Part shown: piece by piece, positions 11,908 through 40,038 of the stretch | Layout: each line of letters opens with the position of its first letter | Numbering within the stretch: the stretch's first letter is position 1 | Source of the DNA: Eledone cirrhosa | Lineage: Eukaryota | Assembly: GCA_964016885.1 (NCBI GenBank) | Contig: OZ024764.1 | Span: 26,536,001-26,600,000, forward strand | Direction: 5' to 3' | Length of the DNA: 64,000 nt | The notes under the pieces: model-generated | Database searches by the model: none | What the model was told of the DNA's origin: nothing | Seen by the model: the letters and a program-made list of their open reading frames with translations, nothing else | Translations under genes and position numbers: made by a program

Positions 11908-12414
11908 GCCCGGAAGCAGTTGATTTCACAGAAACATCTGCAATTAAAACTACATTTATTTCACTTCATTTGGTGTTACCACCCGGCAGAGGCCCGTATA
12001 GCTTTCATATTCAGGGTCAAACATATCACTACACCCCCATCTCTGTAACCTGCAGAAAATACACCACAATATGGCCAGTTATATATTATTGATGGGAACG
12101 AAGGTGTGTAGCACAGATTGGAAGTACGACCAAATAATTGTTTCTGGCACAAGGCCAGCAATCACTGGTACTTTATTCTATCGACCTCATAAGGATGAAA
12201 ACAAAGTCAACCTTGGAGGGATTTGAACCCAGAACGTAAATGGCCATAACCCTATGCTGTAAAGCATGGTGTCTGGCGCTCTACCGATACTGCCAATCCA
12301 CTGCCCTAGTACCAACAAATAATGACTGCTCACCACAAAAAATGGCTATAATAAGAGAGGTGTTGCATGAATGTAATTCATATGTCGAAGTGTACAATAC
12401 AATGCATGGCATCA
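11670..12414 (+). pseudogene. Helitron 5' part (copy 2), interrupted at 12415
   Basis: CDHCGALKF..CC.KGKV.LP and GRGPYSFHIQGQTYH; internal SINE at ~12139-12307. Confidence 0.85.
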
Positions 12415-12979
12415 CAAATGAATATATATATATATATATATATATACTACTAAAGTGTATGTAAAATTTTAAAATAAATACTTAAATTCAATTTGTATAA
12501 TTACACATACAATATGTTTTGTTGTAAAACCCTAAATAATGATTTAAGAAATGATGTCAATCTCTTTGTACAGAGAAAAACAATTTATATATATGCATTG
12601 TGTGCGCGTGTATACTCCATTTAAGACATTGAAAAACCTAGTACCTCCTTCAAAGAATGCCAAATAGTTTATGCCTAAGGTGTAACACTAATTAAGTTAC
12701 CGGTGTAGATATTTCAGTTGAACCCTGCTTCAAACATGCATATTATTATTATATATTTTCAAACACACTTACATACATTATATTTATACACATAGAAATA
12801 ATAAGTTAAAACTAAAGTATAATGATATAACAACAGTATATAATAGTTTTCTTCACTTTATTGAAATGCAATCGTTTTAAAGAAAAAACATGACAGTATA
12901 AGAAATATTTAATATGATAACATAATATTTCAGGTAGGATGGTGGTTTCTCTATGATGGTGGTTTCTCTTTGAACTAAT

Positions 12980-13124
12980 AATTGTTTCTATTTTAGGCAC
13001 AAGGTCAGTAATTAACCAGTACATTACTAGTACTTTATTTTATCGACCCCGTAAGGATGAAAGGCAAAGTTGACCTCGGATCGTAAAGGGACGTAACTAT
13101 GCTGGAAAGCATGGCGTCAGACCC
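12980..13124 (-). mobile_element. tRNA-SINE, truncated by the GA array (fuller copy at ~56640-56810)
   Basis: TACTTTATTTTATCGACCCCGTAAGGATGAAAGGCAAAGTTGACCTCGG core. Confidence 0.75.
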
Positions 13125-16100
13125 GAGAGACAGAGAGAGCGAGATGACACGAGACAGAGAGCGAGATGAAATGAGAGAGAGAGAGAGAGAGATGAAACGA
13201 GAGAGAGAGTGCGAGATGAAACGAGAGTGAGAGAGCGAGATGAAACGAGAGAGTGAGAGCGAGATGAAATGAGAGAGAGAGAGAACGAGATGAAATGAGA
13301 GAGAGAGAGAGCGAGATGAAATGAGACATAGAGAGATGAAACGAGAGAGAGATGAAACGAGAAAGAGAGGAAACGAGAGAGAGGAAACGTGAGTAGAGAG
13401 CGAGATGAAACAGGAGAGAGAGAGCGAGATGAAACGAGAGGGAGAGAGAGATGAAACGAGAGAGCGAGAGAGAGATAGAGGGAAATGAAACGACAGAGAG
13501 AGAGACAGATGAAACGAGGGATATAGAGATGAAACGAGAGAGAGAGATGAAACGAGAGAGAGGAAGAGAGAGATAGAACGAGAGAGAGGAAGAGAGAGAT
13601 GAAACGAGAGAGAAGAAGACAGAGGTGAAACGAGAGAGAGAGAGAGCGAGATGAAACGAGAGAGAGAGCGAGATGAAACGAGAGAGAGGAAGAGAGAGAG
13701 CGAGAGATGAAACTCTGTCATGGACATATCTGACCCTGGGGCTAATAATTGTCATGTAATGTTATGGACATCTCTGCCCCTGTGGCTAATAATTCTGTCA
13801 TGTAATGTTATGGACATCTCTGCCCCTGTGGCTAATAATTCTGTCATGTAATGTTATGGAAATCTCTGCCCCTGTGGCTAATAATTCTGACATGTAATGT
13901 TATGGAATCTCTGCCCCTGTGGCTAATAAATCTGTCATTTAATGTTACGGACATCTCTGCCACTGTGGCTAATAAATCTGTCATGTAATGTTATGGACAT
14001 CTGTGCCCCTGTGGCTAATAATTCTGACATGTAATGTTATGGACATCTCTGCCCCTGTAGCTAATAATTCTGACATGTAATGTTATGGACATCTCTGCCC
14101 CTGTGGCTAATAAATTCGTCATGTAATGTTATGGACATCTCTGCCCCTGTGGCTAATAAATCTGTCATGTAATGTTATGGACATCTCTGCCCCTGTGGCT
14201 AATAATTCTGACATGTAATGTTATGGACATCTCTGCCCCTGTGGCTAATAATTCTGACATGTAATGTTATGGACATCTCTGCCCCTGTGGCTAATAATTC
14301 TGAGAGAGATGAAACAAGTGAGGGATTAGAGAGAGATGAAACAAGTGAGGGATTAGAGTGTTGAAACAAGAGAGAGAGAGGAAGAGAGAGTGAGAGCGAG
14401 ATGAAACGAGAGAGAGAGAGAGAGCGAGATGAAATGAGAGAGAGAGAGCGAGATGAAATGAGAGAGAGAGAGCGAGATGAAACGAGACAGAGAGAGCGGG
14501 ATGAAACGTGACAGAGAGAGCAAGAGCGAGATGAAACGAGACAGAGAGAGCGAGATGAAACGAGAGAGAGAGAGCGAGATGAAATGAGAGAGAGAGAGCG
14601 AGATGAAATGAGAGAGAGAGAGCGAGATGAAACGAGAGAGTGAGAGCGAGATGGAACGAGACAGAGAGAGCGAGATGAAACGAGAGTAGGAGAGCTAGAT
14701 GAAACGAGAGAGAGAGGAAACGAGAGATACGAAACGAGAGAGAGGAAACGAGAGTAGAGAGCGAGATGAAACAGGAGAGAGAGAGCGAGATGAAACAGGA
14801 GAGAGAAAGCGAGATGAAACGAGAGGGAGAGAGAGATGAAACGAGAGAGCGAGAGAGAGATAGAGGGAGATGAAACGACAGAGAGAGAGACAGATGAAAC
14901 GAGGGAGATAGAGATGAAACGAGAGAGAGAGATGAAACGAGAGAGAGGAAGAGAGAGATGGAACGAGAGAGAGGAAGAGAGAGATGGAACGAGAGAGAGG
15001 AAGACAGAGATGAAACGAGAGAGAGAGAGAGCAAGATGAAACGAGAGAGAGGAAGAGAGAGATGGAACGAGAGAGAGGAAGAGAGAGATGGAACGAGCGA
15101 GAGGAAGACAGAGATGAAACGAGACAGAGAGAGATCGAGATGAAACGAGAGAGAGGAAGAGAGAGAGCGCAAGATGAAACGAGAGAGAGAGAGAGAACGA
15201 GATGAAACGAGAGAGAGGAAGAGAGAGAGCGCGAGATGAAACGAGAGAGAGGAAGAGAGAGAGCGCGAGATGAAGTGAGAGAGAGAGAGCGAGATGAAAT
15301 GAGAGATTGAGAGTGAGATGAAACGAGAGAGTGAGAGAGAGCGAGATGAAATGAGAGAGAGAGAGCGAGATGAAATGAGAGAGAGAGAGAGAGATGAAAT
15401 GAGAGAGAGAGAGCGAGATGAAACGAGACAGAGAGAGCGGGATGAAACGAGACAGAGAGATCGAGATGAAATGAGAGAGAGAGAGCGAGATGAAATGAGA
15501 GAGAGAGAGCGAGATGAAACGAGAGAGTGAGAGCGAGATGGAACGAGTCAGAGAGAGCGAGATGAAACGAGAGAGTGAGAGCTAGATGAAACGAGAGAGA
15601 GAGGAAACGAGAGAGAGAGGAAACTAGAGAGAGGAAACAAGAGAGAGGAAACGAGAGTAGAGAGCAAGATGAAACAGGAGAGAGAGAGAGCGAGATGAAA
15701 CCGGAGAGAGAGAGCGAGATGAAACGAGAGGGAGGGAGAGATGAAACGAGAGAGCGAGAGAGAGATAGAGGGAGATGAAACGAGAGAGTGATAGCTAGAT
15801 GAAACGAGAGAGAGAGGAATAGAGAGATGGAACGAGAGAGAGGAAGACAGATATGAAACGAGAGAGAGAGAGAGCGAGATGAAACGAGAGAGAGGAAGAG
15901 AGAGAGCGCGAGATGAAACGAGAGAGAGAGAGCGAGATGAAACGAGAGAGAGAGAGCGAGATGAAACGAGAGAGAGAGAGCGAGATGAAACGAGAGAGAG
16001 GAAGAGAGAGAGCGCGAGATGAAAGTCTGTCATGTAATGTTATGGACATATCTGCCCTTGGGGCTAATAATTGTCATGTAATGTTATGGACATATCTACC

Positions 16101-19100
16101 CTTGGGGCTAATAATTGTCATGTAATGTTATGTACATCTCTGCCCCTGTGGCAAATAATTCTGTCATGTAATGTTATGGACATCTCTGTCCCTGTGGCTA
16201 ATAATTATGTCATGTAATGTTATGGACATCTCTGCCCCTGTGGCTAATAATTCTGTCATGTAATGTTATGGACATCTCTGCCCCTGTGGCTAATAAATTT
16301 GTCATGTAATGTTATAGACATCTCTGCCCCTGTGGCTAATAATTCTGACATGTAATGTTATGGATATCTCTGCCCCTGTGGCTAATAATTCTGAGAGAGA
16401 TGAAACAAGTGAGGGATAAGAGAGAGATGAAACAAGTGAGGGATTAGAGTGTTGAAACAAGAGAGAGAGAGGAAGAGAGAGTGAGAGCGAGATCAAACGA
16501 GAGAGAGAGAGAGAGCGAGATGAAATGAGAGAGAGAGAGCGAGATGAAATGAGAGAGAGAGAGCGAGATGAAACGAGACAGAGAGAGCGGGATGAAACGT
16601 GACAGAGAGAGCAAGAGCGAGATGAAACGAGACAGAGAGAGCGAGATGAAACGAGAGAGAGAGAGCGAGATGAAATGAGAGAGAGAGAGCGAGATGAAAT
16701 GAGAGAGAGAGAGAGCGAGATGAAACGAGAGAGTGAGAGCGAGATGGAACGAGACAGAGAGAGCGAGATGAAACGAGAGTAGGAGAGCTAGATGAAACGA
16801 GAGAGAGAGGAAACGAGAGATACGAAACGAGAGAGAGGAAACGAGAGTAGAGAGCGAGATGAAACAGGAGAGAGAGAGCGAGATGAAACAGGAGAGAGAA
16901 AGCGAGATGAAACGAGAGGGAGAGAGAGATGAAACGAGAGAGCGAGAGAGAGATAGTGGGAGATGAAACGACAGAGAGAGAGACAGATGAAACGAGGGAG
17001 ATAGAGATGAAACGAGAGAGAGAGATGAAACGAGAGAGAGGAAGAGAGAGATGGAACGAGAGAGAGGAAGAGAGAGATGGAACGAGAGAGAGGAAGACAG
17101 AGATGAAACGAGAGAGAGAGAGAGCAAGATGAAACGAGAGAGAGGAAGAGAGAGATGGAACGAGAGAGAGGAAGAGAGAGATGGAACGAGCGAGAGGAGG
17201 ACAGAGATGAAACGAGACAGAGAGAGATCGAGATGAAACGAGAGAGAGGAAGAGAGAGAGCGCAAGATGAAACGAGAGAGAGAGAGCGAGATGAAACGAG
17301 AGAGAGGAAGAGAGAGAGCGCGAGATGAAACGAGAGAGAGGAAGAGAGAGAGCGCGAGATGAAGTGAGAGAGAGAGAGCGAGATGAAATGAGAGATGCAG
17401 AGTGAGATGAAACGAGAGAGTGAGAGAGAGCGAGATGAAATGAGAGAGAGAGAGCGAGATGAAATGAGAGAGAGAGAGCGAGATGAAATGAGGGAGAGAG
17501 AGCGAGATGAAACGAGACAGAGAGAGCGGGATGAAACGAGACAGAGAGATCGAGATGAAATGAGAGAGAGAGAGCGAGATGAAATGAGAGAGAGAGAGCG
17601 AGATGAAACGAGAGAGTGAGAGCGAGATGGAACGAGTCAGAGAGAGCGAGATGAAACGAGAGAGTGAGAGCTAGATGAAACGAGAGAGAGAGGAAACGAG
17701 AGAGAGAGGAAACTAGAGAGAGGAAACAAGAGAGAGGAAACGAGAGTAGAGAGCAAGATGAAACAGGAGAGAGAGAGAGCGAGATGAAACCGGAGAGAGA
17801 GAGCGAGATGAAACGAGAGGGAGGGAGAGATGAAACGAGAGAGCGAGAGAGAGATAGAGGGAGATGAAACGAGAGAGTGATAGCTAGATGAAACGAGAGA
17901 GAGAGGAATAGAGAGATGGAACGAGAGAGAGGAAGACAGATATGAAACGAGAGAGAGAGCGAGATGAAACGAGAGAGAGGAAGAGAGAGAGCGCGAGATG
18001 AAACGAGAGAGAGAGAGCGAGATGAAACGAGAGAGAGAGAGCGAGATGAAACGAGAGAGAGAGAGCGAGATGAAACGAGAGAGAGGAAGAGAGAGAGCGC
18101 GAGATGAAAGTCTGTCATGTAATGTTATGGACATATCTGCCCTTGGGGCTAATAATTGTCATGTAATGTTATGGACATATCTACCCTTGGGGCTAATAAT
18201 TGTCATGTAATGTTATGTACATCTCTGCCCCTGTGGCAAATAATTCTGTCATGTAACGTTATGGACATCTCTGTCCCTGTGGCTAATAATTATGTCATGT
18301 AATGTTATGGACATCTCTGCCCCTGTGGCTAATAATTCTGTCATGTAATGTTATGGACATCTCTGCCCCTGTGGCTAATAAATTTGTCATGTAATGTTAT
18401 GGACATCTCTGCCCCTGTGGCTAATAAATCTGTCATGTAATGTTATGGACATCTCTGCCCCTGTGGCTAATAATTCTGACATGTAATGTTATGGATATCT
18501 CTGCCCCTGTGGCTAATAATTCTGAGAGAGATGAAACAAGTGAGGGATAAGAGAGAGATGAAACAAGTGAGGGATTAGAGTGTTGAAACAAGAGAGAGAG
18601 AGGAAGAGAGAGTGAGAGCGAGATCAAACGAGAGAGAGAGAGCGAGATGAAATGAGAGAGTGAGAGCGAGATGAAACGAGAGAGAGAGAGCGAGATGAAA
18701 TGAGAGAGAGAGAGCGAGATGAAATGAGAGAGAGAGAGCGAGATGAAACGAGACAGAGAGAGCGAGGTGAAACGAGAGAGAGAGAGAGCGAAATGAAACG
18801 AGACAGATTAGAGCGAGATGAAACGAGAGAGAGAGAGCGAGATGAAATGAGAGAGAGAGAGCGAGATGAAACGAGAGAGTGAGAGCTAGAGGAAACGATA
18901 GAGAGAGGAAACGAGAGAGAGAGGAAACGAGAGAGAGGATACGAGAGAGAGGAAACGAGAGTAGAGAGCGAGATGAAACAGGAGAGAGAGAGCGAGATGA
19001 AACAGGAGAGAGAGAGCGAGATGAAACGAGAGGGAGAGAGAGATGAAACGAGAGAGCGAGAGAGAGATAGAGGGAGATGAAACGACAGAGAGAGAGACAG

Positions 19101-22100
19101 ATGAAACAAGTGAGGGATAAGAGAGAGATGAAACAAGTGAGGGATTAGAGTGTTGAAACAAGAGAGAGAGAGGAAGAGAGAGTGAGAGCGAGATCAAACG
19201 AGAGAGAGAGAGCGAGATGAAATGAGAGAGTGAGAGCGAGATGAAACGAGAGAGAGAGAGCGAGATGAAATGAGAGAGCGAGAGCGAGATGAAATGAGAG
19301 AGAGAGAGCGAGATGAAACGAGACAGAGAGAGCGAGATGAAACGAGAGAGAGAGAGAGCGAAATGAAACGAGACAGATTAGAGCGAGATGAAACGAGAGA
19401 GAGAGAGCGAGATGAAATGAGAGAGAGAGAGCGAGATGAAACGAGAGAGTGAGAGCTAGAGGAAACGAGAGAGAGAGGAAACGAGAGTAGAGAGCGAGAT
19501 GAAACAGGAGAGAGAGAGCGAGATGAAACAGGAGAGAGAGAGCGAGATGAAACAGGAGAGAGAGAGCGAGATGAAACAGGAGAGAGAGAGCGAGATGAAA
19601 CGAGAGGGAGAGAGAGATGAAACGAGAGAGCGAGAGAGAGATAGAGGGAGATGAAACGACAGAGAGAGAGACAGATGAAACGAGGGAGATAGAGATGAAA
19701 CGAGAGAGAGAGATGAAACGAGAGAGAGGAAGAGAGAGATGGAACGAGAGAGAGGAAGAGAGAGATGGAACGAGAGAGAGGAAGACAGAGATGAAACGAG
19801 AGAGAGAGAGAGCGAGATGAAACGAGAGAGAGGAAGAGAGAGAACGCGAGATGAAACGAGAGCGAGAGAGAGCAAGATGAAACGAGAGAGAGGAAGAGAG
19901 AGAGCGCAAGATGAAACGAGAGAGAGAGAGAGCGAGATGAAAGTCTGTCATGTAATGTTATGGACACATCTGCCCTTGGGGCTAATAATTGTCATGTAAT
20001 GTTATGGAAATCTCTGCCCCTGTGGCTAATAATTCTGTCATGTAATGTTATGGACATCTCTGCCACTGTGGCTAATAATTATGTCATGTAATGTTATGGA
20101 CATCTCTGCCCCTGTGGCTAATAAATCTGTCATGTAATGTTATGGACATCTCTGCCCCTGTGGCTAATAATTCTGACATGTAATGTTATGGACATCTCTG
20201 CCCCTGTGGCTAATAAATATGACATGTAATGTTATGGACATCTCTGCCCCTGTGGCTAATAAATCTGTCATGTAATGTTATGGACATCTCTGCCCCTGTG
20301 GCTAATAATTCTGACATGTAATGTTATGGACATCTCTGCCCCTGTGGCTAATAATTCTGAGATAGATGAAACAAGTGAGGGATTAGATAGAGATGAAACA
20401 AGTGAGGGATTAGAGTGTTGAAACAAGAGAGAGAGAGGAAGAGAGAGTGAAAGCGAAATCAAACGAGAGAGAGCGAGATGAAATGAGAGAGTGAGAGCGA
20501 GATGAAACGAGAGAGAGAGAGAGAGCGAGATGAAATGAGAGAGAGAGAGCGAGATGAAATGAGAGAGAGAGAGCGAGATGAAACGAGACAGAGAGAGCGG
20601 GATGAAACGAGACAGAGAGAGCGAGAGCGAGATGAAACGAGACAGAGAGAGCGAGATGAAACGAGAGAGAGAGAGCGAGATGAAATGAGAGAGAGAGAGC
20701 GAGATGAAATGAGAGAGAGAGAGCGAGATGAAACGAGAGAGTGAGAGCGAGATGGAACGAGACAGAGAGAGCGAGATGAAACGAGAGTGGGAGAGCTAGA
20801 TGAAACGAGAGAGAGAGGAAACGAGAGAGACGAAACGAGAGAGAGGAAACGAGAGTAGAGAGCGAGATGAAACAGGAGAGAGAGAGCGAGATGAAACAGG
20901 AGAGAGAGAGCGAGATGAAACGAGAGGGAGAGAGAGATGAAACGAGAGAGCGAGAGAGAGATAGAGGGAGATGAAACGACAGAGAGAGATACAGATGAAA
21001 CGAGGGAGATAGAGATGAAACGAGAGAGAGAGATGAAACGAGAGAGAGGAAGAGAGAGATGGAACGAGAGAGAGGAAGAGAGAGATGGAACGAGAGAGAG
21101 GAAGACAGAGATGAAACGAGAGAGAGAGAGAGCAAGATGAAACGAGAGAGAGAGATGTAACGAGAGAGAGGAAGAGAGAGATGGAACGAGAGAGAGGAAG
21201 AGAGAGATGGAACGAGCGAGAGGAAGACAGAGATGAAACGAGACAGAGAGAGATCGAGATGAAACGAGAGAGAGGAAGAGAGAGAGCGCAAGATGAAACG
21301 AGAGAGAGAGAGAGAGCAAGATGAAACGAGAGAGAGGAAGAGAGAGAGCGCGAGATGAAACGAGAGAGAGGAAGAGAGAGAGCGCGAGATGAAATGAGAG
21401 AGAGAGAGCAAGATGAAATGAGAGATTGAGAGTGAGATGAAACGAGAGAGTGAGAGAGAGCGAGATGAAATGAGAGAGAGAGAGCGAGATGAAATGAGAG
21501 AGAGAGAGCGAGATGAAACGAGACAGAGAGAGCGGGATGAAACGAGACAGAGAGATCGAGATGAAATGAGAGAGAGAGAGCGAGATGAAATGAGAGAGAG
21601 AGAGCGAGATGAAACGAGAGAGTGAGAGCGAGATGGAACGAGTCAGAGAGAGCGAGATGAAACGAGAGAGTGAGAGCTAGATGAAACGAGAGAGAGAGGA
21701 AACGAGAGAGAGAGGAAACGAGAGAGAGGAAACGAGAGAGAGGAAACGAGAGTAGAGAGCAAGATGAAACAGGAGAGAGAGAGAGCGAGATGAAACTGGA
21801 GAGAGAGAGCGAGATGAAACGAGTGGGAGGGAGAGATGAAACGAGAGAGCGAGAGAGAGATAGAGGGAGATGAAACGAGAGAGTGATAGCTAGATGAAAC
21901 GAGAGAGAGAGGAATAGAGAGATGGAACGAGAGAGAGGAAGACAGATATGAAACGAGAGAGAGAGAGCGAGATGAAACGAGAGAGAGGAAGAGAGAGAGA
22001 GCGAGATGAAACGAGAGAGAGAGCGAGATGAAACGAGAGAGAGAGAGAGCGAGATGAAACGAGAGAGAGGAAGAGAGAGAGCGCGAGATGAAAGTCTGTC

Positions 22101-23898
22101 ATGTAATGTTATGGACATATCTGCCCCTGGGGCTAATAATTGTCATGTAATGTTATGGACATATCTGCCCTTGGGGCTAATAATTGTCATGTAATGTTAT
22201 GTACATCTCTGCCCCTGTGGCAAATAATTCTGTCATGTAATGTTATGGACATCTCTGTCCCTGTGGCTAATAATTATGTCATGTAATGTTATGGACATCT
22301 CTGCCCCTGTGGCTAATAATTCTGTCATGTAATGTTATGGACATCTCTGCCCCTGTGGCTAATAAATTCGTCATGTAATGTTATGGACATCTCTGCCCCT
22401 GTGGCTAATAAATCTGTCATGTAATGTTATGGACATCTCTGCCCCTGTGGCTAATAATTCTGACATGTAATGTTATGGATATCTCTGCCCCTGTGGCTAA
22501 TAATTCTGAGAGAGATGAAACAAGTGAGGGATAAGAGAGAGATGAAACAAGTGAGGGATTAGAGTGTTGAAACAAGAGAGAGAGAGGAAGAGAGAGTGAG
22601 AGCGAGATCAAACGAGAGAGAGAGAGCGAGATGAAATGAGAGAGTGAGAGCGAGATGAAACGAGAGAGAGAGAGCGAGATGAAATGAGAGAGAGAGAGCG
22701 AGATGAAATGAGAGAGAGAGAGCGAGATGAAACGAGACAGAGAGAGCGAGATGAAACGAGAGAGAGAGAGAGCGAAATGAAACGAGACAGATTAGAGCGA
22801 GATGAAACGAGAGAGAGAGAGCGAGATGAAATGAGAGAGAGAGAGCGAGATGAAACGAGAGAGTGAGAGCTAGAGGAAACGAGAGCTAGAGGAAACGAGA
22901 GAGAGAGGAAACGAGAGAGAGGATACGAGAGAGAGGAAACGAGAGTAGAGAGCGAGATGAAACAGGAGAGAGAGAGCGAGATGAAACAGGAGAGAGAGAG
23001 CGAGATGAAACGAGAGGGAGAGAGAGATGAAACGAGAGAGCGAGAGAGAGATAGAGGGAGATGAAACGACAGAGAGAGAGACAGATGAAACGAGGGAGAT
23101 AGAGATGAAACGAGAGAGAGAGATGAAACGAGAGAGAGGAAGAGAGAGATGGAACGAGAGAGAGGAAGAGAGAGATGGAACGAGAGAGAGGAAGACAGAG
23201 ATGAAACGAGAGAGAGAGAGAGCGAGATGAAACGAGAGAGAGGAAGAGAGAGAACGCAAGATGAAACGAGAGAGAGAGCAAGATGAAACGAGAGAGAGGA
23301 AGAGAGAGAGCGCAAGATGAAACGAGAGAGAGAGAGCGCGAGATGAAAGTCTGTCATGTAATGTTATGGACATATCTGCCCTTGGGGCTAATAATTGTCA
23401 TGTAATGTTATGGAAATCTCTGCCCCTGTGGCTAATAATTCTGTCATGTAATGTTATGGACATCTCTGCCCCTGTGGCTAATAATTCTGTCATGTAATGT
23501 TATGAACATCTCTGCCCCTGTGGCTAATAAATCTGTCATGTAATGTTATGGACATCTCTGCCCCTGTGGCTAATAATTCTGACATGTAATGTTATGGACA
23601 TCTCTGCCCCTGTGGCTAATAAATATTACATGTAATGTTATGGACATCTCTGCCCCTGTGGCTAATAAATCTGTCATGTAATGTTATGGACATCTCTGCC
23701 CCTGTGGCTAATAATTCTGACATGTAATGTTATGGACATCTCTGCCCCTGTGGCTAATAAATCTGTCATGTAATGTTATGGACATCTCTGCCCCTGTGGC
23801 TAATAATTCTGACATGTAATGTTATGGACATCTCTGCCCCTGTGGCTAATAATTCTGACATGTAATGTTATGGACATCTCTGCCCCTGTGGCTAATAA
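13125..23898 (+). repeat. Left arm of composite satellite: 6 modules of GA-rich (GAGATGAAAC..) block + 46-bp minisatellite
   Basis: GA blocks begin at ~13125, 14300, 16391, 18521, 20357, 22507 and end at ~13712, 16024, 18109, 19942, 22093, 23349, with fixed junction sequences. Confidence 0.95.
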
Positions 23899-23905
23899 TT
23901 CTGAT

Positions 23906-26900
23906 TTATTAGCCACAGGGGCAGAGATGTCCATAACATTACATGTCAGAATTATTAGCCACAGGGGCAGAGATGTCCATAACATTACATGACAGAATTA
24001 TTAGCCACAGGGGCAGAGATGACCATAACATTACATGACAATTATTAGCCACAGGGTCAGATATGTCAATAACATTACATGACAGAGTTTCATCTTGCGC
24101 GCTCTCTCTCTCGTTTCATCTCGCTCTCCCTCTCTCTCGTTTCATCTCTGTCTTCCTCTCTCTCGTTTCATCTCGCTCTCTCTCTCTCTCGTTTCATCTC
24201 TGTCTTCCTCTCTCTCGTTCCATCTCTCACTTCCTCTCTCTCGTTCCATCTCTCTCTTCCTCTCTCTCGTTTCATCTCTATCTCCCTTCTTTCATCTGTC
24301 TCTCTCTCTGTCGTTTCATCTCGCGCTCTCTCTCTCTCTCGTTTCATCTTGCGCTCTCTCTCTCTCTCGTTTCGTCTTGCTCTCTCTCTCTCTCGTTTCA
24401 TCTCTGTCTTCCTCTCTCTCGTTCCATCTCTCTCTTCCTCTCTCTCGTTCCATCTCTCTCATCCTCTCTCTCGTTTCATCTCTATCTCCCTTCTTTCATC
24501 TGTCTCTCTCTCTGTCGTTTCATCTCGCGCTCTCTCTCTCTCTCGTTTCATCTTGCGCTCTCTCTCTCTCTCGTTTCGTCTTGCTCTCTCTCTCTCTCGT
24601 TTCATCTCTGTCTTCCTCTCTCTCGTTCCATCTCTCTCTTCCTCTCTCTCGTTCCATCTCTCTCATCCTCTCTCTCGTTTCATCTCTATCTCCCTCCTTT
24701 CATCTGTCTCTCTCTCTGTCGTTTCATCTCGCGCTCTCTCTCTCTCGTTTCATCTTGCGCTCTCTCTCTCTCGTTTCATCTCGCTCTCTCTCTCGTTTCA
24801 TCTCTGTCTTCCTCTCTCTCGTTCCATCTCTCTCTTCCTCTCTCTCGTTCCATCTCTCTCTTCCTCTCTCTCGTTTCATCTCTATCTCCCTTCTTTCATC
24901 TGTCTCGCTCTCTGTAGTTTCATCTCGCGCTCTCTCTCTCTCGTTTCATGTCGCGCTCTCTCTCTCTCGTTTCATCTCGCTCTCTCTCTCTTGTTTCATC
25001 TCTGTCTTCCTCTCTCTCGTGCCATCTCTCTCTTCCTCTCTCTCGTTCCATCTCTCTCTTCCTCTCTCTCGTTTCATCTCTATCTCCCTTGTTTCATCTC
25101 TCTCTCGCTCTCTCGTTTCATCTCTCTCTCCCTCTCGTTTCATCTCGCTCTCTCTCTCCTGTTTCATCTCACTCTCTCTCTCTCGTTTCATCTCTGTCTT
25201 CCTCTCTCTCGTTCCATCTCTGTCTTCCTCTCTCTCGTTCCATCTCTCTCTTCCTCTCCCTCGTTTCATCTCTCTCTCGCTCTCTCGTTTCATCTCTCTC
25301 TCCCTCTCATTTCATCTCGCTCTCTCTCTCCTGTTTCATCTCGCTCTCTACTCTCGTTTCCTCTCTCTCTCTCGTTTCATCTCTCTCTCCCTCCCGTTTC
25401 ATCTCGCTCTCTCTCTCTCATTTCATCTCGCTCTCTCTCTCTCGTTTCATCTCGCTCTCCCTCTCTCGTTTCATCCCGCTCTCACTCTCTCATTTCTTCT
25501 CGCTCTCTCTCTCTTGTTTCAACACTCTAATCCCTCACTTGTTTACTATCTCTCAGAATTATTAGCCACAGGGACAGAGATGACCATAACATTACATGTC
25601 AGAATTATTAGCCACAAGGGCAGAGATGTCCATAACATTACATGACAGAATTATTAGCCACAGGGGCAGAGATGACCATAACATTACATGAAAATTATTA
25701 GCCACAGGGGCAGATATGTCAATAACATTACATGACAGAGTTTCATCTCGCGCTCTCTCTCTCTCGTTTCATCTTGCACTCTCTCTCTCTCTCGTTTCAT
25801 CTTGCTCTCTCTCTCGTTTCATCTCTGTCTTCCTCTCTCTCGTTCCATCTCTCTCTTCCTCTCCCTCGTTCCATCTCTCTCATCCTCTCTCTCGTTTCAT
25901 CTCTATCTCCCTCCTTTCATCTGTCTCTCTCTCTGTCGTTTCATCTCGCGCTCTCTCTCTCTCGTTTCATCTCGCGCTCTCTCTGTCTCGTTTCATCTCG
26001 CTCTCTCTCGTTTCATCTCTGTCTTCCTCTCTCTCGTTCCATCTCTCTCTTCCTCTCTCTCATTCCATCTCTCTCTTCCTCTCTCTCGTTTCATCTCTAT
26101 CTCCCTCGTTTCATCTCTCTCTCGCTCTCTCGTTTCATCTCTCTCTCCCGCTCGTTTCTTCTCGCTCTCTCTCTCCTGTTTCATCTCGCTCTCTACTCTC
26201 GTTTCCTCTCTCTCTCGTTTCATCTCTGTCTCGTTTCATCTCGCTCTCTCTCTTTCTCGTTTGATCTCGCTCTCACTCTCTCGTTTCATCTCGCTTCTCT
26301 CACTCTCTTGTTTCATCTCGCTCTCTCTCTCTCTTCCTCTCTCTCTCTTGTTTCAACACTCTAATCCCTCACTTGTTTTATCTCTCTCTAATCCCTCACT
26401 TGGTTCATCTCTCTCAGAATTATTAGCCACAGGGGCAGAGATGTCCATAACATTGCATGTCAGAATTATTAGCCACAGGGCAGAGATGTCCATAACATTA
26501 CGTCAGAATTATTAGCCACAGGGGCAGAGATGTCCATAACATTACATGGCAGAATTATTAGCCACAGGGGCAGAGATGTCCATAACATTACATGACAGAA
26601 TTATTAGCCACAGGGGCAGAGATGTCCATAACATTACATGTCAGAATTATTAGCCATAGGGGCAGAGATGTCCATAACATTACATGACAATTATTAGCCC
26701 CAAGGGCAGATATGTCGATAACATTACATGAGAGAGTTTCATCTCGCGCTCTCTCTCTTCCTCTCTCTCGTTTCATCTCTCTCTTCCTCTCTCTCGTTTC
26801 ATCTCTATCTCCCTCCTTTCATCTGTCTCTCTCTCTGTCGTTTCATCTCGCGCTCTCTCTCTCTCGTTTCATCTTGCGCTCTCTCTCTCTCGTTTCATCT

Positions 26901-29900
26901 CGCTCTCCCTCTCTCTCGTTTCATCTCTGTCTTCCTCTCTCTCGTTTCATCTCGCTCTCTCTCTCTCTCGTTTCATCTCTGTCTTCCTCTCTCTCGTTCC
27001 ATCTCTCACTTCCTCTCTCTCGTTCCATCTCTCTCTTCCTCTCTCTCGTTTCATCTCTATCTCCCTTCTTTCATCTGTCTCTCTCTCTGTCGTTTCATCT
27101 CGCGCTCTCTCTCTCTCTCGTTTCATCTTGCGCTCTCTCTCTCTCTCGTTTCGTCTTGCTCTCTCTCTCTCTCGTTTCATCTCTGTCTTCCTCTCTCTCG
27201 TTCCATCTCTCTCTTCCTCTCTCTCGTTCCATCTCTCTCATCCTCTCTCTCGTTTCATCTCTATCTCCCTCCTTTCATCTGTCTCTCTCTCTGTCGTTTC
27301 ATCTCGCGCTCTCTCTCTCTCGTTTCATCTTGCGCTCTCTCTCTCTCGTTTCATCTCGCTCTCTCTCTCGTTTCATCTCTGTCTTCCTCTCTCTCGTTCC
27401 ATCTCTCTCTTCCTCTCTCTCATTCCATCTCTCTCTTCCTCTCTCTCGTTTCATCTCTATCTCCCTTCTTTCATCTGTCTCGCTCTCTGTAGTTTCATCT
27501 CGCGCTCTCTCTCTCTCGTTTCATGTCGCGCTCTCTCTCTCTCGTTTCATCTCGCTCTCTCTCTCTCGTTTCATCTCTGTCTTCCTCTCTCTCGTGCCAT
27601 CTCTCTCTTCCTCTCTCTCGTTCCATCTCTCTCTTCCTCTCTCTCGTTTCATCTCTATCTCCCTTGTTTCATCTCTCTCTCGCTCTCTCGTTTCATCTCT
27701 CTCTCCCTCTCGTTTCATCTCGCTCTCTCTCTCCTGTTTCATCTCGCTCTCTCTCTCTCTCGTTTCATCTCTGTCTTCCTCTCTCTCGTTCCATCTCTGT
27801 CTTCCTCTCTCTCGTTCCATCTCTCTCTTCCTCTCCCTCGTTTCATCTCTCTCTCGCTCTCTCGTTTCATCTCTCTCTCCCTCTCATTTCATCTCGCTCT
27901 CTCTCTCCTGTTTCATCTCGCTCTCTACTCTCGTTTCCTCTCTCTCTCTCGTTTCATCTCTCTCTCCCTCCCGTTTCATCTCGCTCTCTCTCTCTCATTT
28001 CATCTCGCTCTCTCTCTCTCGTTTCATCTCGCTCTCCCTCTCTCGTTTCATCCCGCTCTCACTCTCTCATTTCTTCTCGCTCTCTCTCTCTTGTTTCAAC
28101 ACTCTAATCCCTCACTTGTTTACTATCTCTCAGAATTATTAGCCACAGGGACAGAGATGACCATAACATTACATGTCAGAATTATTAGCCACAAGGGCAG
28201 AGATGTCCATAACATTACATGACAGAATTATTAGCCACAGGGGCAGAGATGACCATAACATTACATGAAAATTATTAGCCACAGGGGCAGATATGTCAAT
28301 AACATTACATGACAGAGTTTCATCTCGCGCTCTCTCTCTCGTTTCATCTTGCGCTCTCTCTCTCTCTCGTTTCATCTTGCTCTCTCTCTCGTTTCATCTC
28401 TGTCTTCATCTCTCTCGTTCCATCTCTCTCTTCCTCTCCCTCGTTCCATCTCTCTCATCCTCTCTCTCGTTTCATCTCTATCTCCCTCCTTTCATCTGTC
28501 TCTCTCTCTGTCGTTTCATCTCGCGCTCTCTCTCTCTCGTTTCATCTCGCGCTCTCTCTGTCTCGTTTGATCTCGCTCTCTCTCGTTTCATCTCTGTCTT
28601 CCTCTCTCTCGTTCCATCTCTCTCTTCCTCTCTCTCGTTCCATCTCTCTCTTCCTCTCTCTCGTTTCATCTCTATCTCCCTCGTTTCATCTCTCTCTCGC
28701 TCTCTCGTTTCATCTCTCTCTCCCGCTTGTTTCTTCTCGCTCTCTCTCTCCTGTTTCATCTCGCTCTCTACTCTCGTTTCCTCTCTCTCATTTCCTCTCT
28801 CTCTCGTTTCATCTCTGTCTCGTTTCATCTCGCTCTCTCTCTTTCTCGTTTGATCTCGCTCTCACTCTCTCGTTTCATCTCGCTTCTCTCACTCTCTTGT
28901 TTCATCTCGCTCTCTCTCTCTCTTCCTCTCTCTCTCTTGTTTCAACACTCTAATCCCTCACTTGTTTTATCTCTCTCTAATCCCTCACTTGGTTCATCTC
29001 TCTCAGAATTATTAGCCACAGGGGCAGAGATGTCCATAACATTGCATGTCAGAATTATTAGCCACAGGGCAGAGATGTCCATAACATTACGTCAGAATTA
29101 TTAGCCACAGGGGCAGAGATGTCCATAACATTACATGTCAGAATTATTAGCCACAGGGGCAGAGATGTCCATAACATTACATGACAGAATTATTAGCCAC
29201 AGGGGCAGAGATGTCCATAACATTACATGTCAGAATTATTAGCCATAGGGGCAGAGATGTCCATAACATTACATGACAATTATTAGCCCCAAGGGCAGAT
29301 ATGTCGATAACATTACATGAGAGAGTTTCATCTCGCGCTCTCTCTCTTCCTCTCTCTCGTTTCATCTCTGTCTTCCTCTCTCTCGTTCCATCTCCCTCTT
29401 CCTCTCTCTCGTTCCATCTCTCTCTTCCTCTCTCTCGTTTCATCTCTATCTCCCTCCTTTCATCTGTCTCTCTCTCTGTCGTTTCATCTCGCGCTCTCTC
29501 TCTCTCGTTTCATCTTGCGCTCTCTCTCTCTCGTTTCATCTCGCTCTCTCTCTCTCTCGTTTCATCTCTGTCTTCCTCTCTCTCGTTCCATCTCTCTCTT
29601 CCTCTCTCTCGTTTCATCTCTATCTCCCTCGTTTCATCTCTCTCTCGCTCTCTCGTTTCATCTCTCTCTCCCTCTCGTTTCATCTCACTCTCTACTCTCG
29701 TTTCCTCTCTGTCTCGTTCCATCCCGCTCTCTCTCTCTCTCATTACATCTCGCTCTCTCTGTCTCGTTTCATCTCGCTCTCACTCTCTCGTTTCAACACT
29801 CTAATCCCTCACTTGTTTTATCTCTCTCTAATCCCCCACTTGTTTCATCTCTCTCAGAATTATTAGCCACAGGGGGAGAGATGTCCATAACATTACATGT

Positions 29901-32900
29901 AAGAATTATTAGCCACAGGGGCAGAGATGTCCATAACATTACATGACAGAATTATTAGCCACCGGGCCAGTGATGTCCATAACATTACATGACAATTATT
30001 AGCCCGAAGGGCAGATATGTCCATAACATTACATGACAGAGTTTCATCTTGCGCTCTCTCTCTTGCTCTCTCTCGTTTCATCTCGCTCTCTCGTTTCATC
30101 TCGCTCTCTCTCGTTTCATCTCTGTCTTCCTCTCTCTCGTTCCATCTCTCTCTTCCTCTCTCTCGTTCCATCTCTCTCTTCCTCTCTCTCGTTCCATCTC
30201 TCTCTTCCTCTCTCTCGTTTCATTTCTATCTCCCTCCTTTCATCTGTCTCTCTCTCTGTCGTTTCATCTCGCGCTCTCTCTCTCTCGATTCATCTCGCGC
30301 TCTCTCTCTCTCGTTTCATCTCGCTCTCTCTCTCTCTCTCGTTTCATCTCTGTCTTCCTCTCTCTCGTTCCATCTCTCTCTTCCTCCCTCTCTTCCTCTC
30401 TCTCGTTTCATCACTATCTCCCTCGTTTCATCTCTCTCTCCCTCTCGTTTCATCTCGCTCTCTCTCTCCTGTTTCATCTCGCTCTCTACTCTCGTTTCCT
30501 CTCTGTCTCGTTCCATCCCGCTCTCTCTCTCTCTCATTACATCTCGCTCTCTCTGTCTCGTTTCATCTCGCTCTCTCTCTCTCTCGTTTCATCTCGCTCT
30601 CACTCTCTCGTTTCATCTCGCGTTTCATCTCACTCTCCCTGTCTCATTTCATCTCGCTCTCTCTCTCTCTCTTCCTCTCTCTCTCTTGTTTCAACACTCT
30701 AATCCCTCACTTGTTTTATCTCTCTCTAATCCCTCACTTGTTTCATCTCTCTCAGAATTATTAGCCACAGGGGCAGAGATGTCCATAACATTACATGTCA
30801 GAATTATTAGCCACAGGGCAGAGATGTCCATAACATTACATGTCAGAGTTATTAGCCACAGGGGCAGAGATGTCCATAACATTACATGTCAGAATTATTA
30901 GCCACAGGGGCGGAGACGTCCATAACATTACATGACAGAATTATTAGCCACAGGGGCAGAGATGACCATAACATTACATGACAATTATTAGCCACAGGGG
31001 CAGATATATCAATAACATTACATGATAGAGTTTCATCTCGCGCTCTCTCTCTCTCGTTTCATCTTGCTCTCTCTCTCTCTCGTTTCATCTCTGTCTTCCT
31101 CTCTCTCGTTCCATCTCTCTCTTCCTCTCTCTCGTTCCATCTCTCTCATCCTCTCTCTCGTTTCATCTCTATCTCCCTCCTTTCATCTGTCTCTCTCTCT
31201 GTCGTTTCATCTCGTGCTCTCTCTCTCTCGTTTCATCTCGCGCCCTCTCTGTCTCGTTTCATCTCGCTCTCTCTCTCTCTCGTTTCATCTCTGTCTTCCT
31301 CTCTCTCGTTCCATCTCTCTCTTCCTCTCTCTCTTCCTCTCTCTCGTTTCATCTCTATCTCCCTCGTTTCATATCTCTCTCGCTCTCTCGTTTCATCTCT
31401 CTCTCCCTCTCGTTTCATCTCGCTCTCTACTCTCGTTTCCTCTCTGTCTCGTTCCATCCCGCTCTCTCTCTCTCACATTACATCTCGCTCTCTCTGTCTC
31501 GTTTCATCTCGCTCTCTCTCTCTCTCGTTTCATCTCGATCTCACTCGCTCGTTTCATCTCGCTTCTCTCACTATTGCGTTTCATCTCGCTCTCCCTGTCT
31601 CATTTCATCTCGCTCTCTCTCTCTCTCTTCCTCTCTCTCTCTTGTTTCAACACTCTAATCCCTCACTTGTTTTATCTCTCTCTAATCCCTCCCTTGTTTC
31701 ATCTCTCTCAGAATTATTAGCCACTGGGGCAGAGATGTCCATAACATTACATGTCAGAGTTATTAGCCACAGGGGCAGAGATGTCCATAACATTACATGA
31801 CAATTATTAGCCCCAAGGGCAGATATGTGCATAACATTACATGACAGAGTTTCATCTCGCGCTCTCTCTCTCTCGTTTCATCTCGCGCTCTCTCCCTTCC
31901 TCTCTCTCGTTTCATCTCGATCTCTCTCTCTCTCGTTTCACCTCTGTCTTTCATCTCTCTCTTCCTCTCTCTCGTTCCATCTCTCTCTTCCTCTCTCTCG
32001 TTTCATCTCTATCTCCCTCCTTTCATCTGTCTCTCTCTCTGTCGTTTCATCTCGCGCTCTCTCTCTCTCCTTTCATCTCGTGCTCTCTCTCTCTCGTTTC
32101 ATCTCTGTCTTCCTCTCTCTCGTTCCATCTCTCTCTTCCTCTCTCTCTTCCTCTCTCTCGTTTCATCTCTATCTCCCTCGTTTCATCTCTCTCTCCCTCT
32201 CGTTTCATCTCGCTCTCTCTCTCCTGTTTCATCTCGCTCTCTACTCTCGTTTCCTCTCTCTCGTTTCCTCTCTGTCTCGTTCCATCCCGCTCTCTCTCTC
32301 TCTCATTACATCTCGCTCTCTCTGTCTCGTTTCATCTCGCTCTCTGTCTCTCTCGTTTCATCTCGCTCTCACTCTCTCGTTTCATCTCGCGTTTCATCTC
32401 ACTCTCCCTGTCTCATTTCATCTCGCTCTCTCTCTCTCTTCCTCTCTCTCTCTTGTTTCAACACTCTAATCCCTCACTTGTTTTATCTCTCTCTAATCCC
32501 TCACTTGTTTCATCTCTCTCAGAATTATTAGCCACAGGGGCAGAGATGTCCATAACATTACATGTCAGAATTATTAGCCACAGGGCAGAGATGTCCATAA
32601 CATTACATGTCAGAATTATTAGCCACAGGGGCAGAGATGTCCATAACATTACATGTCAGAATTATTAGCCACAGGGGCGGAGACGTCCATAACATTACAT
32701 GACAGAATTATTAGCCACAGGGGCAGAGATGACCATAACATTACATGACACTTATTAGCCACAGGGGCAGATATATCAATAACATTACATGATAGAGTTT
32801 CATCTCGCGCTCTCTCTCTCTCTCGTTTCATCTTGCGCTCTCTCTCTCTCGTTTCATCTTGCTCTCTCTCTCTCTCGTTTCATCTCTGTCTTCCTCTCTC

Positions 32901-34690
32901 TCGTTCCATCTCTCTATTCCTCTCTCTCGTTCCATCTCTCTCATCCTCTCTCTCGTTTTATCTGTATCTCCCTCCTTCAATCTGTCTCTCTCTCTGTCGT
33001 TTCATCTCGTGCTCTCTCTCTCTCGTTTCATCTCGCGCTCTCTCTGTCTCGTTTCATCTCGCTCTCTCTCTCTCTCTCTCGTTTCATCTCTGTCTTCCTC
33101 TCTCTCGTTCCATCTCTCTCTTCCTCTTTCTCGTTCCATCTCTCTCTTCCTCTCTCTCGTTTCATCTCTATCTCCCTCGTTTCATCTCTCTCTCGCTCTC
33201 TCGTTTCATCTCTCTCTCCCTCTCGTTTCATCTCCCTCTCTACTCTCGTTTCCTCTCTGTCTCGTTCCATCCCGCTCTCTCTCTCTCTCATTACATCTCG
33301 CTCTCTCTGTCTCGTTTCATCTCGCTCTCTCTCGCTCTCGTTTCATCTCGCTCTCACTCTCTCGTTTCATCTCGCTTCTCTAACTATTGCGTTTCATCTC
33401 GCTCTCCCTGTCTCATTTCATCTCGCTCTCTCTCTCTCTCTTCCTCTTGTTTCAACACTCTAATCCCTCACTTGTTTTATCTCTCTCTAATCCCTCACTT
33501 GTTTCATCTCTCTCAGAATTATTAGCCACAGGGGCAGAGATGTCCATAACATTACATGTCAGAGTTATTAGCCACAGGGGCAGAGATGTCCATAACATTA
33601 CATGACAATTATTAGCCCCAAGGGCAGATATGTCCATAACATTACATGACAGAGTTTCATCTCGCGCTCTCTCTCTCTCGTTTCATCTCGCGCTCTCTCT
33701 CTTCCTCTCTCTCGTTTCATCTCGCTCTCTCTCTCTCTCGTTTCACCTCTGTCTTCCTCTCTCTCGTTCCATCTCACTCTTCCTCTCTCTCATTTCATCT
33801 CTCTCTCTCTCGTTTCATCTGTCTCTCTCTCTGTCGTTTCATCTCCCTCTATCTCTCTCTCCCTCTCGTTTCATCTCGCTCTCTCTCTCCTGTTTCATCT
33901 CGCTCTCTCTCTCTCATTTCATCTCGCTCTCTCTCTCTCATTTCATCTCGCTCTCTCTCTCTCGTTTCATCTCGCTCTCACTCTCTCGTTTCATCTCGCT
34001 CTCACTCTCTCGTTTCATCTCGCTCTCCCTGTCTCGTTTCATCTCGCTCACACTCTCTCATTTCATCTCGCTCTCTCTCTCTTCTTTCAACACTCTAATC
34101 CCTCACTTGTTTCATCTCTCTCAGAATTATTAGCCACAGGGGCAGAGATGTCCATAACATTACATGTCAGAATTATTAGCCACAGGGGCAGAGATGTCCA
34201 TAACATCACATGTCAGAATTATTAGCCACAGGGGCAGAGATGTCCATAACATTACATGTCAGAATTATTAGCCACAGGGGCAGAGATGTCCATAACATTA
34301 CATGACAGATTTATTAGCCACAGGGGCAGAGATGTCCATAACATTACATGGCAGATTTATTAGCCACAGGGGCAGAGATGTCCATAACATTACATGTCAG
34401 AATTATTAGCCACAGGGGCAGAGATGTCCATAACATTACATGACAGATTTATTAGCCACAGGGGCAGAGATGTCCATAACATTACATGACAGATTTATTA
34501 GCCACAGGGGCAGAGATGTCTATAACATTACATGACATAATTATTAGCCACAGGGGCAGAGATGTCCATAACATTACATGACAGATTTATTAGCCATAGG
34601 GGCAGAGATGACCATAACATTACATGACAGAATTATTAGCCACAGGGGCAGAGATGTCCATAACATTACATGACAGAATTATTAGCCACA
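23906..34690 (-). repeat. Right arm of composite satellite: 10 modules in inverted orientation
   Basis: CT blocks begin at ~24083, 25736, 26732, 28313, 29321, 30037, 31026, 31845, 32793, 33650, separated by reverse-complement 46-bp arrays. Confidence 0.95.
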
Positions 34691-34917
34691 TGTAATGTTA
34701 TGGACATCTCTGCCCCTGTGGCTAATAATTCTGTCATGTTATGTTATGGACATCTCTGCCCCTGTGGCTAATAATTCTGACATGTAATGTTAGGGACATC
34801 TCTGCCCCAGTGGCTCATAATTCTGACATGTAATGTTATGGACATCTCTGCCCCTGTGGCTAATAATTCTGTCATGTAATGTTATGGACATCTCTGCCCC
34901 TGTGGCTAATAATTCTG
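34688..34917 (+). repeat. Re-inverted 46-bp array, ~5 units
   Basis: Junction ATTAGCCACA|TGTAATGTTATGGAC. Confidence 0.9.
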
Positions 34918-35979
34918 TTCAAATCTGACTGACATGCATGGTATATATTTATGTTTCATTAGACACCGCCACAATACACAGGAACTTATAAAGATATGTA
35001 TATATTGTCCAGGAGTTTCGAGTTTAGTGGGAATTGTACAAATCTCAATTGGAGCTAGTCCCTGCAAGATCAGCATAAATAATGTTATACCTTTTCATGA
35101 AATCTTGCACACCCGATATTTTATACATGATTATTTAAAGGTGAACAAAAACCGAAGAACATTGAGCAGCATTTCTCAACCTTTCTACCCATGTTGATCT
35201 CTTGAAATAGTTTTTATGTCTCAAGGAAGCCTTGCATAAAATATACTTTTTCTATCTCTAGAGCAGTGGTTCCCAAATCGTGTGCTGTGAGATGAAACTA
35301 GATGAGCTGCAAAAGACTAAGATTAAGTTTTAAGATGTGAAAAATATAAAACTGAAATTTCATATAAAAGTTCAAATATAGCTACAGCCACAAACCTAGG
35401 CTCCACACCCCGCAACGCAGAGGAGAGTAAGATAGTACTGAGCCCTGACTCACCTCTTCCACTCCATTGAGACCTCTGCCATACTTGGTCCCCCTACTGC
35501 TGATTTCCTCCATAAAGTCGGGAGGAAAGACGGCAGGAGCCTCGTGAGGAGGGGCAACTATTGTAGCAGGTGTCTCTGGCCTTGTTCCGAGGTAACGCTT
35601 TTACGTTTCTTCCACGTGTTGCGGCTGAGGGACCACTTAGACTGGGGTGAAGTGTCTGTCCCTCCCCCGACTTCTTACTTCCTTTTTTTTCTCCTTTTCA
35701 ATTTCTTTTCTCTTCTTGCTTATCTCTGCTATACCACGGCATCAAAAAGATATATGATATATGTATGTATGGTATAGGTGTATTTATATTTAGGATAGTT
35801 ATCAAAGGTAAATAGACTGGTTGGAGTAATAACAGTCTTGTTTATGTATATACACACATATATACATATATATATATATATATATATGTTTGTTCTTGTA
35901 TTTCTATAGAAAAGGTAAAGAAAAGAAGAGTGCTCTATGTATTGTACAGAGCTATTTAATTACATAATAAACAACAGAA

Positions 35980-40034: not shown

Positions 40035-40038
40035 TTAC

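What the first reader, a model, noticed from the sequence alone, without database searches (positions are those of the whole stretch)
13125..34917. 21.8-kb fold-back satellite with equal-length arms that are not mirror copies
Seen: a two-part module (purine-rich GAGATGAAAC block + 46-bp array) repeats on + up to 23898. After a 7-bp spacer (GCTAATAA-TTCTGAT-TTATTAGC) it repeats on - up to ~34690. Each arm is ~10.8 kb, but the left has 6 modules and the right has 10. Five left junctions read GAAAGTCTGTC, while right-arm junctions read the GAAACTC-type variant. Inference: the arms expanded separately after an inversion. The layout resembles Foldback-type elements built from tandem subrepeats, but no transposase or TSD is visible. 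The equal arm lengths may be chance.
Basis: partly seen in the sequence, partly recalled or inferred. Interest (0 to 1): 0.75.

Follow-up and report, generated by a model that had tools for sequence, protein, structure and literature searches.

The report
Inverted satellite cassette copied genome-wide
A 22-kb stretch of repeated DNA that reverses direction in its middle is one of at least 58 copies sharing the same turning point, which likely arose once as a DNA-copying slip and spread inside a larger repeated block; its equal arm lengths match what chance gives, and it lacks the ends of a Foldback jumping gene.

Summary
The arms are not mirror copies. The exact turning point occurs 58 times on four contigs, always inside a ~12-kb tandem unit built on a broken Helitron. 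The '7-bp spacer' is two satellite units overlapping by 2 bases. Arm lengths in 26 copies are uncorrelated, so equality here is chance. Modules group by arm, not by locus (161 of 161). The outer ends are neither inverted nor flanked by a target duplication, and no copy examined is a fresh insertion: not a Foldback transposon. Best reading: one out-and-back template switch inside an existing array, separate expansion of each arm, spread by segmental duplication, and flips by crossover between the arms (13 of 16 copies on C18). Unfolded relatives survive on C1 and C18. It resembles Tribolium macro-dyad satellite arrays, but the tip is no more conserved than its flanks, so no function is shown. 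No long read across the switch was seen.

The parts
11669..12414 (+). 5' part of the broken Helitron Rep-helicase gene (segment C), interrupted at 12414 by the insert that carries the satellite
   Evidence: Self-BLAST to 35976-36721 and 45312-46057, where it runs straight on into the rest of the gene; Pfam hits on the 45277-47649 copy
12415..13124 (+). Segment D: AT-rich spacer ending in a cut SINE-like piece (label recalled, no call); constant left flank of the satellite. The array's left end is a deletion joint: the longer form continues past it at 56769-57012
   Evidence: marker found 79 times in the genome
13125..23898 (+). Left arm: six modules (GA block + 46-bp array): 13125-14302, 14303-16393, 16394-18524, 18525-20359, 20360-22508, 22509-23904; first C-type, five G-type
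23891..23913 (.). Switch J1 (+ to -): a + unit ending TCTGA overlaps a - unit by GA (23903-23904); predicted hairpin tip with a 7-nt loop and an 86-bp perfect stem
   Evidence: 58 exact copies on C25 (35), C18 (16), C20 (5), C644 (2)
23906..34690 (-). Right (inverted) arm: ten GA blocks and eleven 46-bp arrays, all C-type
34676..34705 (.). Switch J2 (- to +): the two orientations overlap by ACA (34688-34690)
   Evidence: 16 exact copies
34689..34918 (+). Five 46-bp units back on +, joined by a 2-base overlap (GT) to segment B; this right joint also ends unfolded arrays on C1 and C18, so it is older than the inversion
34919..38688 (+). Right flank: restart of the unit at segment B, then Helitron pieces C, E, F without the insert
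   Evidence: self-BLAST; map
45277..47649 (+). Another copy of the broken Helitron gene (stops, frameshifts, Rep region joined almost directly to the Pif1 end)
   Evidence: Helitron_like_N E=6.7e-07 and Pif1_2B_dom E=1.5e-11, both above cut-off, read with X at stops
57013..58718 (+). Unfolded single-module copy of the same satellite (C-type) in the next unit; the end of another lies at 1-95
9195..10084 (.). A second, unrelated 89-bp satellite in the same unit that also switches from + to -, at a hairpin inside its own monomer

Best explanation
This is a composite satellite array with an internal inverted segment, repeated as part of a broken-Helitron macro-repeat, which likely arose once by an out-and-back template switch during DNA synthesis and was then likely reshaped by ordinary unequal exchange. 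Shown: forward-inverted-forward layout; both switches are overlaps of 2-3 bases with no foreign DNA; one junction sequence is shared by all but a few copies; modules group by arm; unfolded versions exist; on C18 the centre is often reversed relative to its flank. Inferred steps: (1) a GA block and a 46-bp repeat formed a multi-module array inside an insert in the Helitron (state kept on C1 and C18:25 Mb); (2) synthesis jumped to the opposite strand at the TCNGA near-palindrome of the 46-mer, copied backwards and returned at ACA; (3) each arm grew and shrank by slippage or unequal crossover among same-direction modules, fixing G on the left and keeping ancestral C on the right; (4) the whole unit was duplicated in tandem and between chromosomes; (5) occasional crossovers between opposite arms flipped the centre, moved modules between arms and turned flanking DNA round. 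The cassette is most likely a passenger with no selected role.
For: Single origin: 58 exact 29-mers on 4 contigs, 0 in the reversed control; 31 of 35 +/- switches in the fetched DNA carry J1 (29 exact over 47 nt, 2 with one change), 2 have lost it by deletion, 2 involve flank B. Microhomology at J1, J2, the right joint and the shortened right end. Separate arms: nearest neighbour in the same arm for 161 of 161 modules from 12 arrays on C25 and C20, also when only the other chromosome is allowed; mean 24-mer similarity left-left across chromosomes 0.31, right-right 0.24, left-right in the same locus 0.15. Junction letter: inner left modules 60 G, 0 C, 3 uncalled of 63; right 79 C, 0 G, 7 uncalled of 86. 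The unfolded six-module C1 array is C-type (5 called of 6) and about equally far from both arms. A two-module C-type copy with only four inverted units and the tip reversed lies at C18:34.938 Mb. Flips: 13 of 16 C18 junctions have the D flank on the right-arm side, 3 of them on both sides, and C18 right arms hold G-type, left-like modules. Passenger: arm lengths uncorrelated in 26 C25 arrays (rho 0.07, p 0.73); 1 of 56 stem variants mirrored in 30 copies; stem variation 0.5% (left) and 1.7% (right) against 1.3% (0.7-2.3%) in flank C.
Against: No read or contig was seen to bridge J1 with 31 letters on both sides: contigs of X5 and X7 have zero depth on 23885-23902, and none of the listed X4 or X1 pieces spans it (137 of 153 pieces not shown). 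Raw-read support has only 6-8 letters left of the joint. The order of events is not fixed: the C18:34.938 form and the window form are one flip apart in either direction. A plain two-break inversion repaired by end joining would leave similar 2-3-base overlaps. Two of 26 arrays have arms within 1% where 0.5 are expected (p 0.08). The left stem is slightly more uniform (0.5%) than the quietest flank window (0.7%). Copies share ancestry, so counts are not independent events.
Confidence: 0.78

Rival explanations
1. A functional macro-dyad: the inverted arms and their tip are kept because they help organise (peri)centromeric chromatin, as proposed for Tribolium, or because the hairpin promotes breaks that amplify the unit.
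For: Same layout as in PMC13081366 (conserved inversion site shared by chromosomes, flexible arms). Folded C25 arrays are 14-34 kb, unfolded single-module ones 1.1-3.2 kb. A second satellite in the unit also switches strand in 29 copies. On C25 two mirror-oriented blocks flank an 80-bp satellite that fills samples from 28.16 to 28.41 Mb. J1 is kept in 31 of 35 switches.
Against: Tip no more conserved than flanks and variants not mirrored; arm lengths uncorrelated; the 80-bp satellite was absent from all 18 samples beside the C18 and C20 blocks; found on 3 large contigs and one small one only; an unfolded C1 array also reached 8.6 kb.
Confidence: 0.1
2. A Foldback-type (Mutator-like) non-autonomous transposon whose long terminal inverted repeats are made of subrepeats.
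For: Long modular inverted arms of unequal make-up, like the foldback layout described in PMC4079207.
Against: Outer ends not inverted, no 8-10-bp target duplication, left end a deletion joint; no middle domain; flanks are pieces of the same unit in the folded copies mapped; both outer joints exist in unfolded arrays.
Confidence: 0.03
3. An assembly or fold-back read artefact.
For: Short-read contigs X5 and X7 show no J1; no long reads were available.
Against: Arms are not mirror copies; 58 copies with different arm content; in two other samples 11 of 15 and 12 of 12 molecules end exactly at the AATT at 23897 and read on through J1, about 2-4% of monomer depth against 1.0% in the fetched assembly DNA.
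Confidence: 0.04
4. Helitron rolling-circle replication made both the inversion and the tandem units.
For: The unit is built on a Helitron gene, and each satellite is followed by a jump back into upstream unit DNA.
Against: The gene is broken in the copy read; units differ in content and break at many places; Helitron ends were not identified; rolling circles give direct, not inverted, copies (own knowledge).
Confidence: 0.05

Closest known systems
Macro-dyad satellite arrays of Tribolium madens and T. freemani (PMC13081366: passages and part 2 of the Discussion; 10.1101/2024.12.02.626372: passages)
   Same: Multi-kilobase direct and inverted subarrays; truncated monomers meeting with no foreign DNA; short loop; identical inversion site on non-homologous chromosomes; variable arm lengths; one-direction arrays shorter.
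   Different: Here one main junction rather than several types; at least 58 copies rather than thousands; a minor repeat inside a broken-Helitron unit, not the major (peri)centromeric satellite; no trend to equal arms; tip not specially conserved; a second switch returns to the first strand; unfolded and flipped relatives survive. PMC13081366 says such symmetries were documented only in Tribolium.
Small inverted triplications and templated inverted insertions (PMC13334657: passages; PMC11724301 and PMC10766186: abstracts)
   Same: Forward-inverted-forward layout with microhomology at both switches; the four-unit inversion at C18:34.938 Mb (~190 nt) is near the reported median inverted fragment of 160 bp.
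   Different: Overlaps of 2-3 bases against a median of 6; inside a tandem array, so the duplicated flanks cannot be delimited; inherited and amplified rather than transient.
Strand switches in human satellite arrays (10.1101/2021.07.12.452052: passages)
   Same: Inversion breakpoints inside satellite arrays, over 200 in HSat3B5 and beta satellite; composite satellites made of transposon pieces.
   Different: There the arrays are megabases long; here each cassette is 10-35 kb and the switch is traceable to one joint.
Foldback transposons such as Tetris (PMC4079207: passages)
   Same: Inverted arms built from tandem subrepeats.
   Different: No terminal inverted ends, no target duplication, no middle domain, no new insertion sites.
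Helitron/Helentron-carried satellites of oysters (PMC7492417, PMC8268682: search listing only)
   Same: Tandem repeats lodged in Helitron-derived DNA.
   Different: Here the satellite sits in an insert within a broken coding region and spreads with a tandem macro-unit, not as dispersed elements.

Membership tests
Foldback transposon | Outer ends are inverted repeats of each other | tested here: not met
   Left end is GA block, right end is + strand 46-bp unit
Foldback transposon | 8-10-bp target-site duplication | tested here: not met
   No shared end word of 2-14 nt at either end placement tried
Foldback transposon | Copies inserted at unrelated sites | tested here: not met
   Folded copies mapped lie between pieces of the same unit; exceptions are one-sided truncations on C20 and C644. 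Not every one of the 58 was mapped
Foldback transposon | Middle domain or transposase | tested here: not met
   Arms overlap directly; 12 flank ORFs gave only Pif1 and RT families above cut-off; no genome-wide transposase search
Macro-dyad satellite array (Tribolium type) | Multi-kb direct and inverted subarrays of one satellite | tested here: met
Macro-dyad satellite array (Tribolium type) | Inversion site of truncated monomers, no foreign DNA, shared between chromosomes | tested here: met
Macro-dyad satellite array (Tribolium type) | Tendency to equal arm lengths | tested here: not met
   Ratios 0.77-2.30, rho 0.07 in 26 arrays; 2 within 5% against 2.1 expected
Macro-dyad satellite array (Tribolium type) | Major satellite of (peri)centromeric regions on most chromosomes | tested here: inconclusive
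   J1 on four contigs only; 80-bp array between the C25 blocks but not in 18 samples by C18 and C20; centromeres cannot be located with these tools
Template-switch inverted triplication | Forward-inverted-forward layout | tested here: met
Template-switch inverted triplication | Microhomology at both switches | tested here: met
   GA and ACA overlaps read from the sequence; short enough to arise by chance
Template-switch inverted triplication | Net copy gain against the parent allele | not testable with these tools
   The parent array is unknown and later expansion hides copy number
Helitron | Rep and Pif1 helicase coding sequence | tested here: met
   Remnants in the flanking unit, broken
Helitron | 5' TC and 3' hairpin-CTRR termini at unit ends | not tested
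   Unit ends were not defined

The most novel reading that the evidence does not exclude
The fold-back cassette is an engine, not a passenger: by holding one repeat in both directions it acts as a built-in inversion switch and break site that drove a megabase macro-repeat across three chromosomes and set up the mirror-image blocks around the 80-bp array on C25. It would then be a young, single-origin precursor of Tribolium-style macro-dyad chromatin in another animal phylum, with the unfolded, freshly folded, expanded and flipped stages all preserved in one genome.
Probability: 0.12. Interest if true: 0.7.

Novelty: new member of a known kind. Interest (0 to 1): 0.38.

Why it matters
Conserved inversion points in satellite arrays have been read as signs of function (PMC13081366). 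Here an equally 'conserved' point on several chromosomes is explained by one origin plus recent duplication, with no excess conservation and no arm matching: a useful null case. The genome also keeps a series of stages (unfolded, short inversion, expanded, shortened, flipped), which makes the birth and turnover of such arrays directly traceable, and the C18 copies show that the arms serve as substrates for inversions.

Tried and rejected
tRNA and Rfam scans of the window: nothing. Equal-arm constraint: rejected (17 arrays measured from sequence, 9 from motif coordinates, out of at least 37 folded arrays on C25; the within-1% class gave p 0.08). Arm-to-arm conversion at the tip: rejected, 1 of 56 variants mirrored (one of 31 copies dropped for 8 or more differences). 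Pericentromeric link through the 80-bp satellite: not seen by C18 or C20; the genome-wide count failed because the long exact pattern matched only twice. Heterogeneous loose read ends first suggested a dispersed monomer, but they all fall at AATT, so they are most likely restriction-ligation joints (enzyme inferred). The window's exact 89-bp junction motif matched only 10 places because these junctions vary. Register continuity (the + strand stops after TCTGA and resumes at CATG) favours insertion at one point, but about 1 in 8 would arise by chance (my estimate) and it fails in the flipped form, so it is not relied on. Earlier scan findings: none returned. Paper searches listed no description of this satellite; only titles and abstract openings were seen, most subscription papers are not held, and no supplements were opened.
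Full report
Observation. The window is G000:C25:26,536,001-26,600,000 of a 3.0-Gb assembly; the animal group is not shown by any search (the short interspersed repeat pieces look cephalopod-like from recall only). The array runs 13125-34918. GC skew is positive to 24 kb and negative after. After 34690 five 46-bp units return to +, so the layout is forward-inverted-forward.

Not a mirror artefact. Perfect symmetry stops 86 nt from the loop. Modules within an arm reach 98-99.5% identity (L2/L3 99.5, R7/R9 99.4), while the best pair across arms is 97.2%. The exact 29-base turning point J1 occurs 58 times: 35 on C25, 16 on C18, 5 on C20, 2 on C644, and never in the reversed control. J2 occurs 16 times, the right joint 26 times, this copy's left joint 13 times. 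Independent reads give partial support. In raw runs X10 and X11 (two other samples), 11 of 15 and 12 of 12 molecules end at the AATT at 23897 and continue through J1, at about 2-4% of monomer depth; the fetched assembly DNA gives 30 of 2,864, or 1.0%. These reads have only 6-8 letters left of the joint, and short-read contigs X5 and X7 show no depth there, so bridging is not formally shown.

Context. The flanks are a tandem unit of roughly 12 kb that starts near C25:26.46 Mb and recurs in varied form. It carries a broken Helitron gene (Helitron_like_N and Pif1_2B_dom above cut-off), 55-bp and 89-bp satellites and, in some units, reverse-transcriptase remnants. The satellite sits in an insert (segment D plus array) that interrupts the Helitron at 12414; other units lack the insert. 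The unit is + oriented to 28.01 Mb and - oriented from 28.63 to 29.10 Mb on C25, and recurs on C18, C20, C1 and C25:14.7 Mb.

Junction anatomy. At J1 a + unit ending TCTGA overlaps by GA a - unit of the AATAAATC variant; the '7-bp spacer' is simply this overlap. At J2 the overlap is ACA. The right joint overlaps segment B by GT and also ends unfolded arrays on C1 and C18:25 Mb, so it predates the inversion. A shortened right end, 36 exact copies, joins the inverted arm to the end of B over CT. The left end here is a deletion of the longer form seen at 56769-57012. Of 35 +/- switches in 1.66 Mb of fetched DNA, 31 carry J1, 2 lost it by deletion and 2 involve B.

Arm history. Among 161 modules of 500 nt or more from 12 arrays on C25 and C20, every nearest neighbour lies in the same arm, also across chromosomes (14 of 244 modules were under 500 nt and dropped, 69 from C18, C20:27.35 Mb and C644 were classed separately). 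Inner left modules are G-type in 60 of 63 and right modules C-type in 79 of 86, the rest uncalled. The unfolded C1 array is C-type and about equidistant from both arms, so C is likely ancestral. On C18, 13 of 16 junctions have D on the right-arm side, three on both sides, and right arms there contain G-type, left-like modules: the expected trace of crossovers between opposite arms. The copy at C18:34.938 Mb has two C-type modules, four inverted units and a reversed tip; it is one flip from the window's form, direction unknown.

Equal arms. In 26 C25 arrays left arms span 8.9-21.5 kb and right arms 5.5-14.8 kb, ratios 0.77-2.30, rho 0.07. Two are within 5% against 2.1 expected from random pairing; the same two are within 1% against 0.5 expected, p 0.08. 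The window's copy is one of these two.

Function. The tip can fold into a long hairpin, as any such inversion would. Perfect stems are 10-86 bp (median 40) in 31 copies; 1 of 56 variants is mirrored; variation is 0.5% and 1.7% against 1.3% in flank C. Nothing indicates selection. An 80-bp satellite fills four samples between the two C25 blocks but none of 18 samples by the C18 and C20 blocks.

Mechanism. Shown: layout, overlaps, shared junction, arm-wise clustering, unfolded and flipped relatives. Inferred: a single out-and-back template switch in a pre-existing multi-module array, separate expansion of arms, spread by duplication of the unit, and occasional arm-to-arm crossover. It works like a small inverted triplication (PMC13334657, passages) that was inherited and amplified, and looks like Tribolium macro-dyad arrays (PMC13081366), which that paper says were documented only in that genus; strand switches as such are common in human satellites. 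It fails the Foldback tests drawn from PMC4079207.

Verdict. A real, species-level satellite cassette and a tidy natural history of a macro-dyad array, but made by known processes and without evidence of function. New member of a known kind; interest 0.38.

Noticed in passing
window 9195-10084: An 89-bp satellite made of two hairpins also switches from + to -; 29 copies in the fetched DNA do so, with at least 8 junction variants inside the monomer's own hairpin, and each is followed by a jump back to upstream unit DNA.
   Followed up: partly
G000:C25:28.14-28.41 Mb (L151-L153, L225): A homogeneous 80-bp satellite fills four 10-kb samples between the + and - blocks of the macro-repeat; a candidate centromeric array.
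   Followed up: partly
G000:C18:35.03-35.10, 35.28-35.30, 35.70-35.72 Mb: Rearranged units in which D flanks the array on both sides in opposite directions, so the inversion extends into unit DNA.
   Followed up: partly
window 38700-43400: A 4.7-kb insert with broken reverse-transcriptase frames (RVT_1 at 40899-41708), present in only some units.
   Followed up: no
G000:C25:26.46-26.80 Mb: Units recur in a higher-order pattern of roughly 95-110 kb (unfolded, folded short-end, folded long-end).
   Followed up: no
window 98-112 and 58720-58735: Unfolded arrays end in a 15-nt piece that resembles the reverse complement of a GAGATGAAAC-bearing stretch in segment B (near 8207), a possible source of the GA-block motif.
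   Followed up: no
window 57013-57520: The long form of the GA block grades from near-pure GA runs into the GAGATGAAAC motif, as if grown from a microsatellite.
   Followed up: no
G000:C20:27.2376 Mb and C25:27.394 Mb: Two folded arrays have lost the hairpin tip by one-sided deletion.
   Followed up: partly
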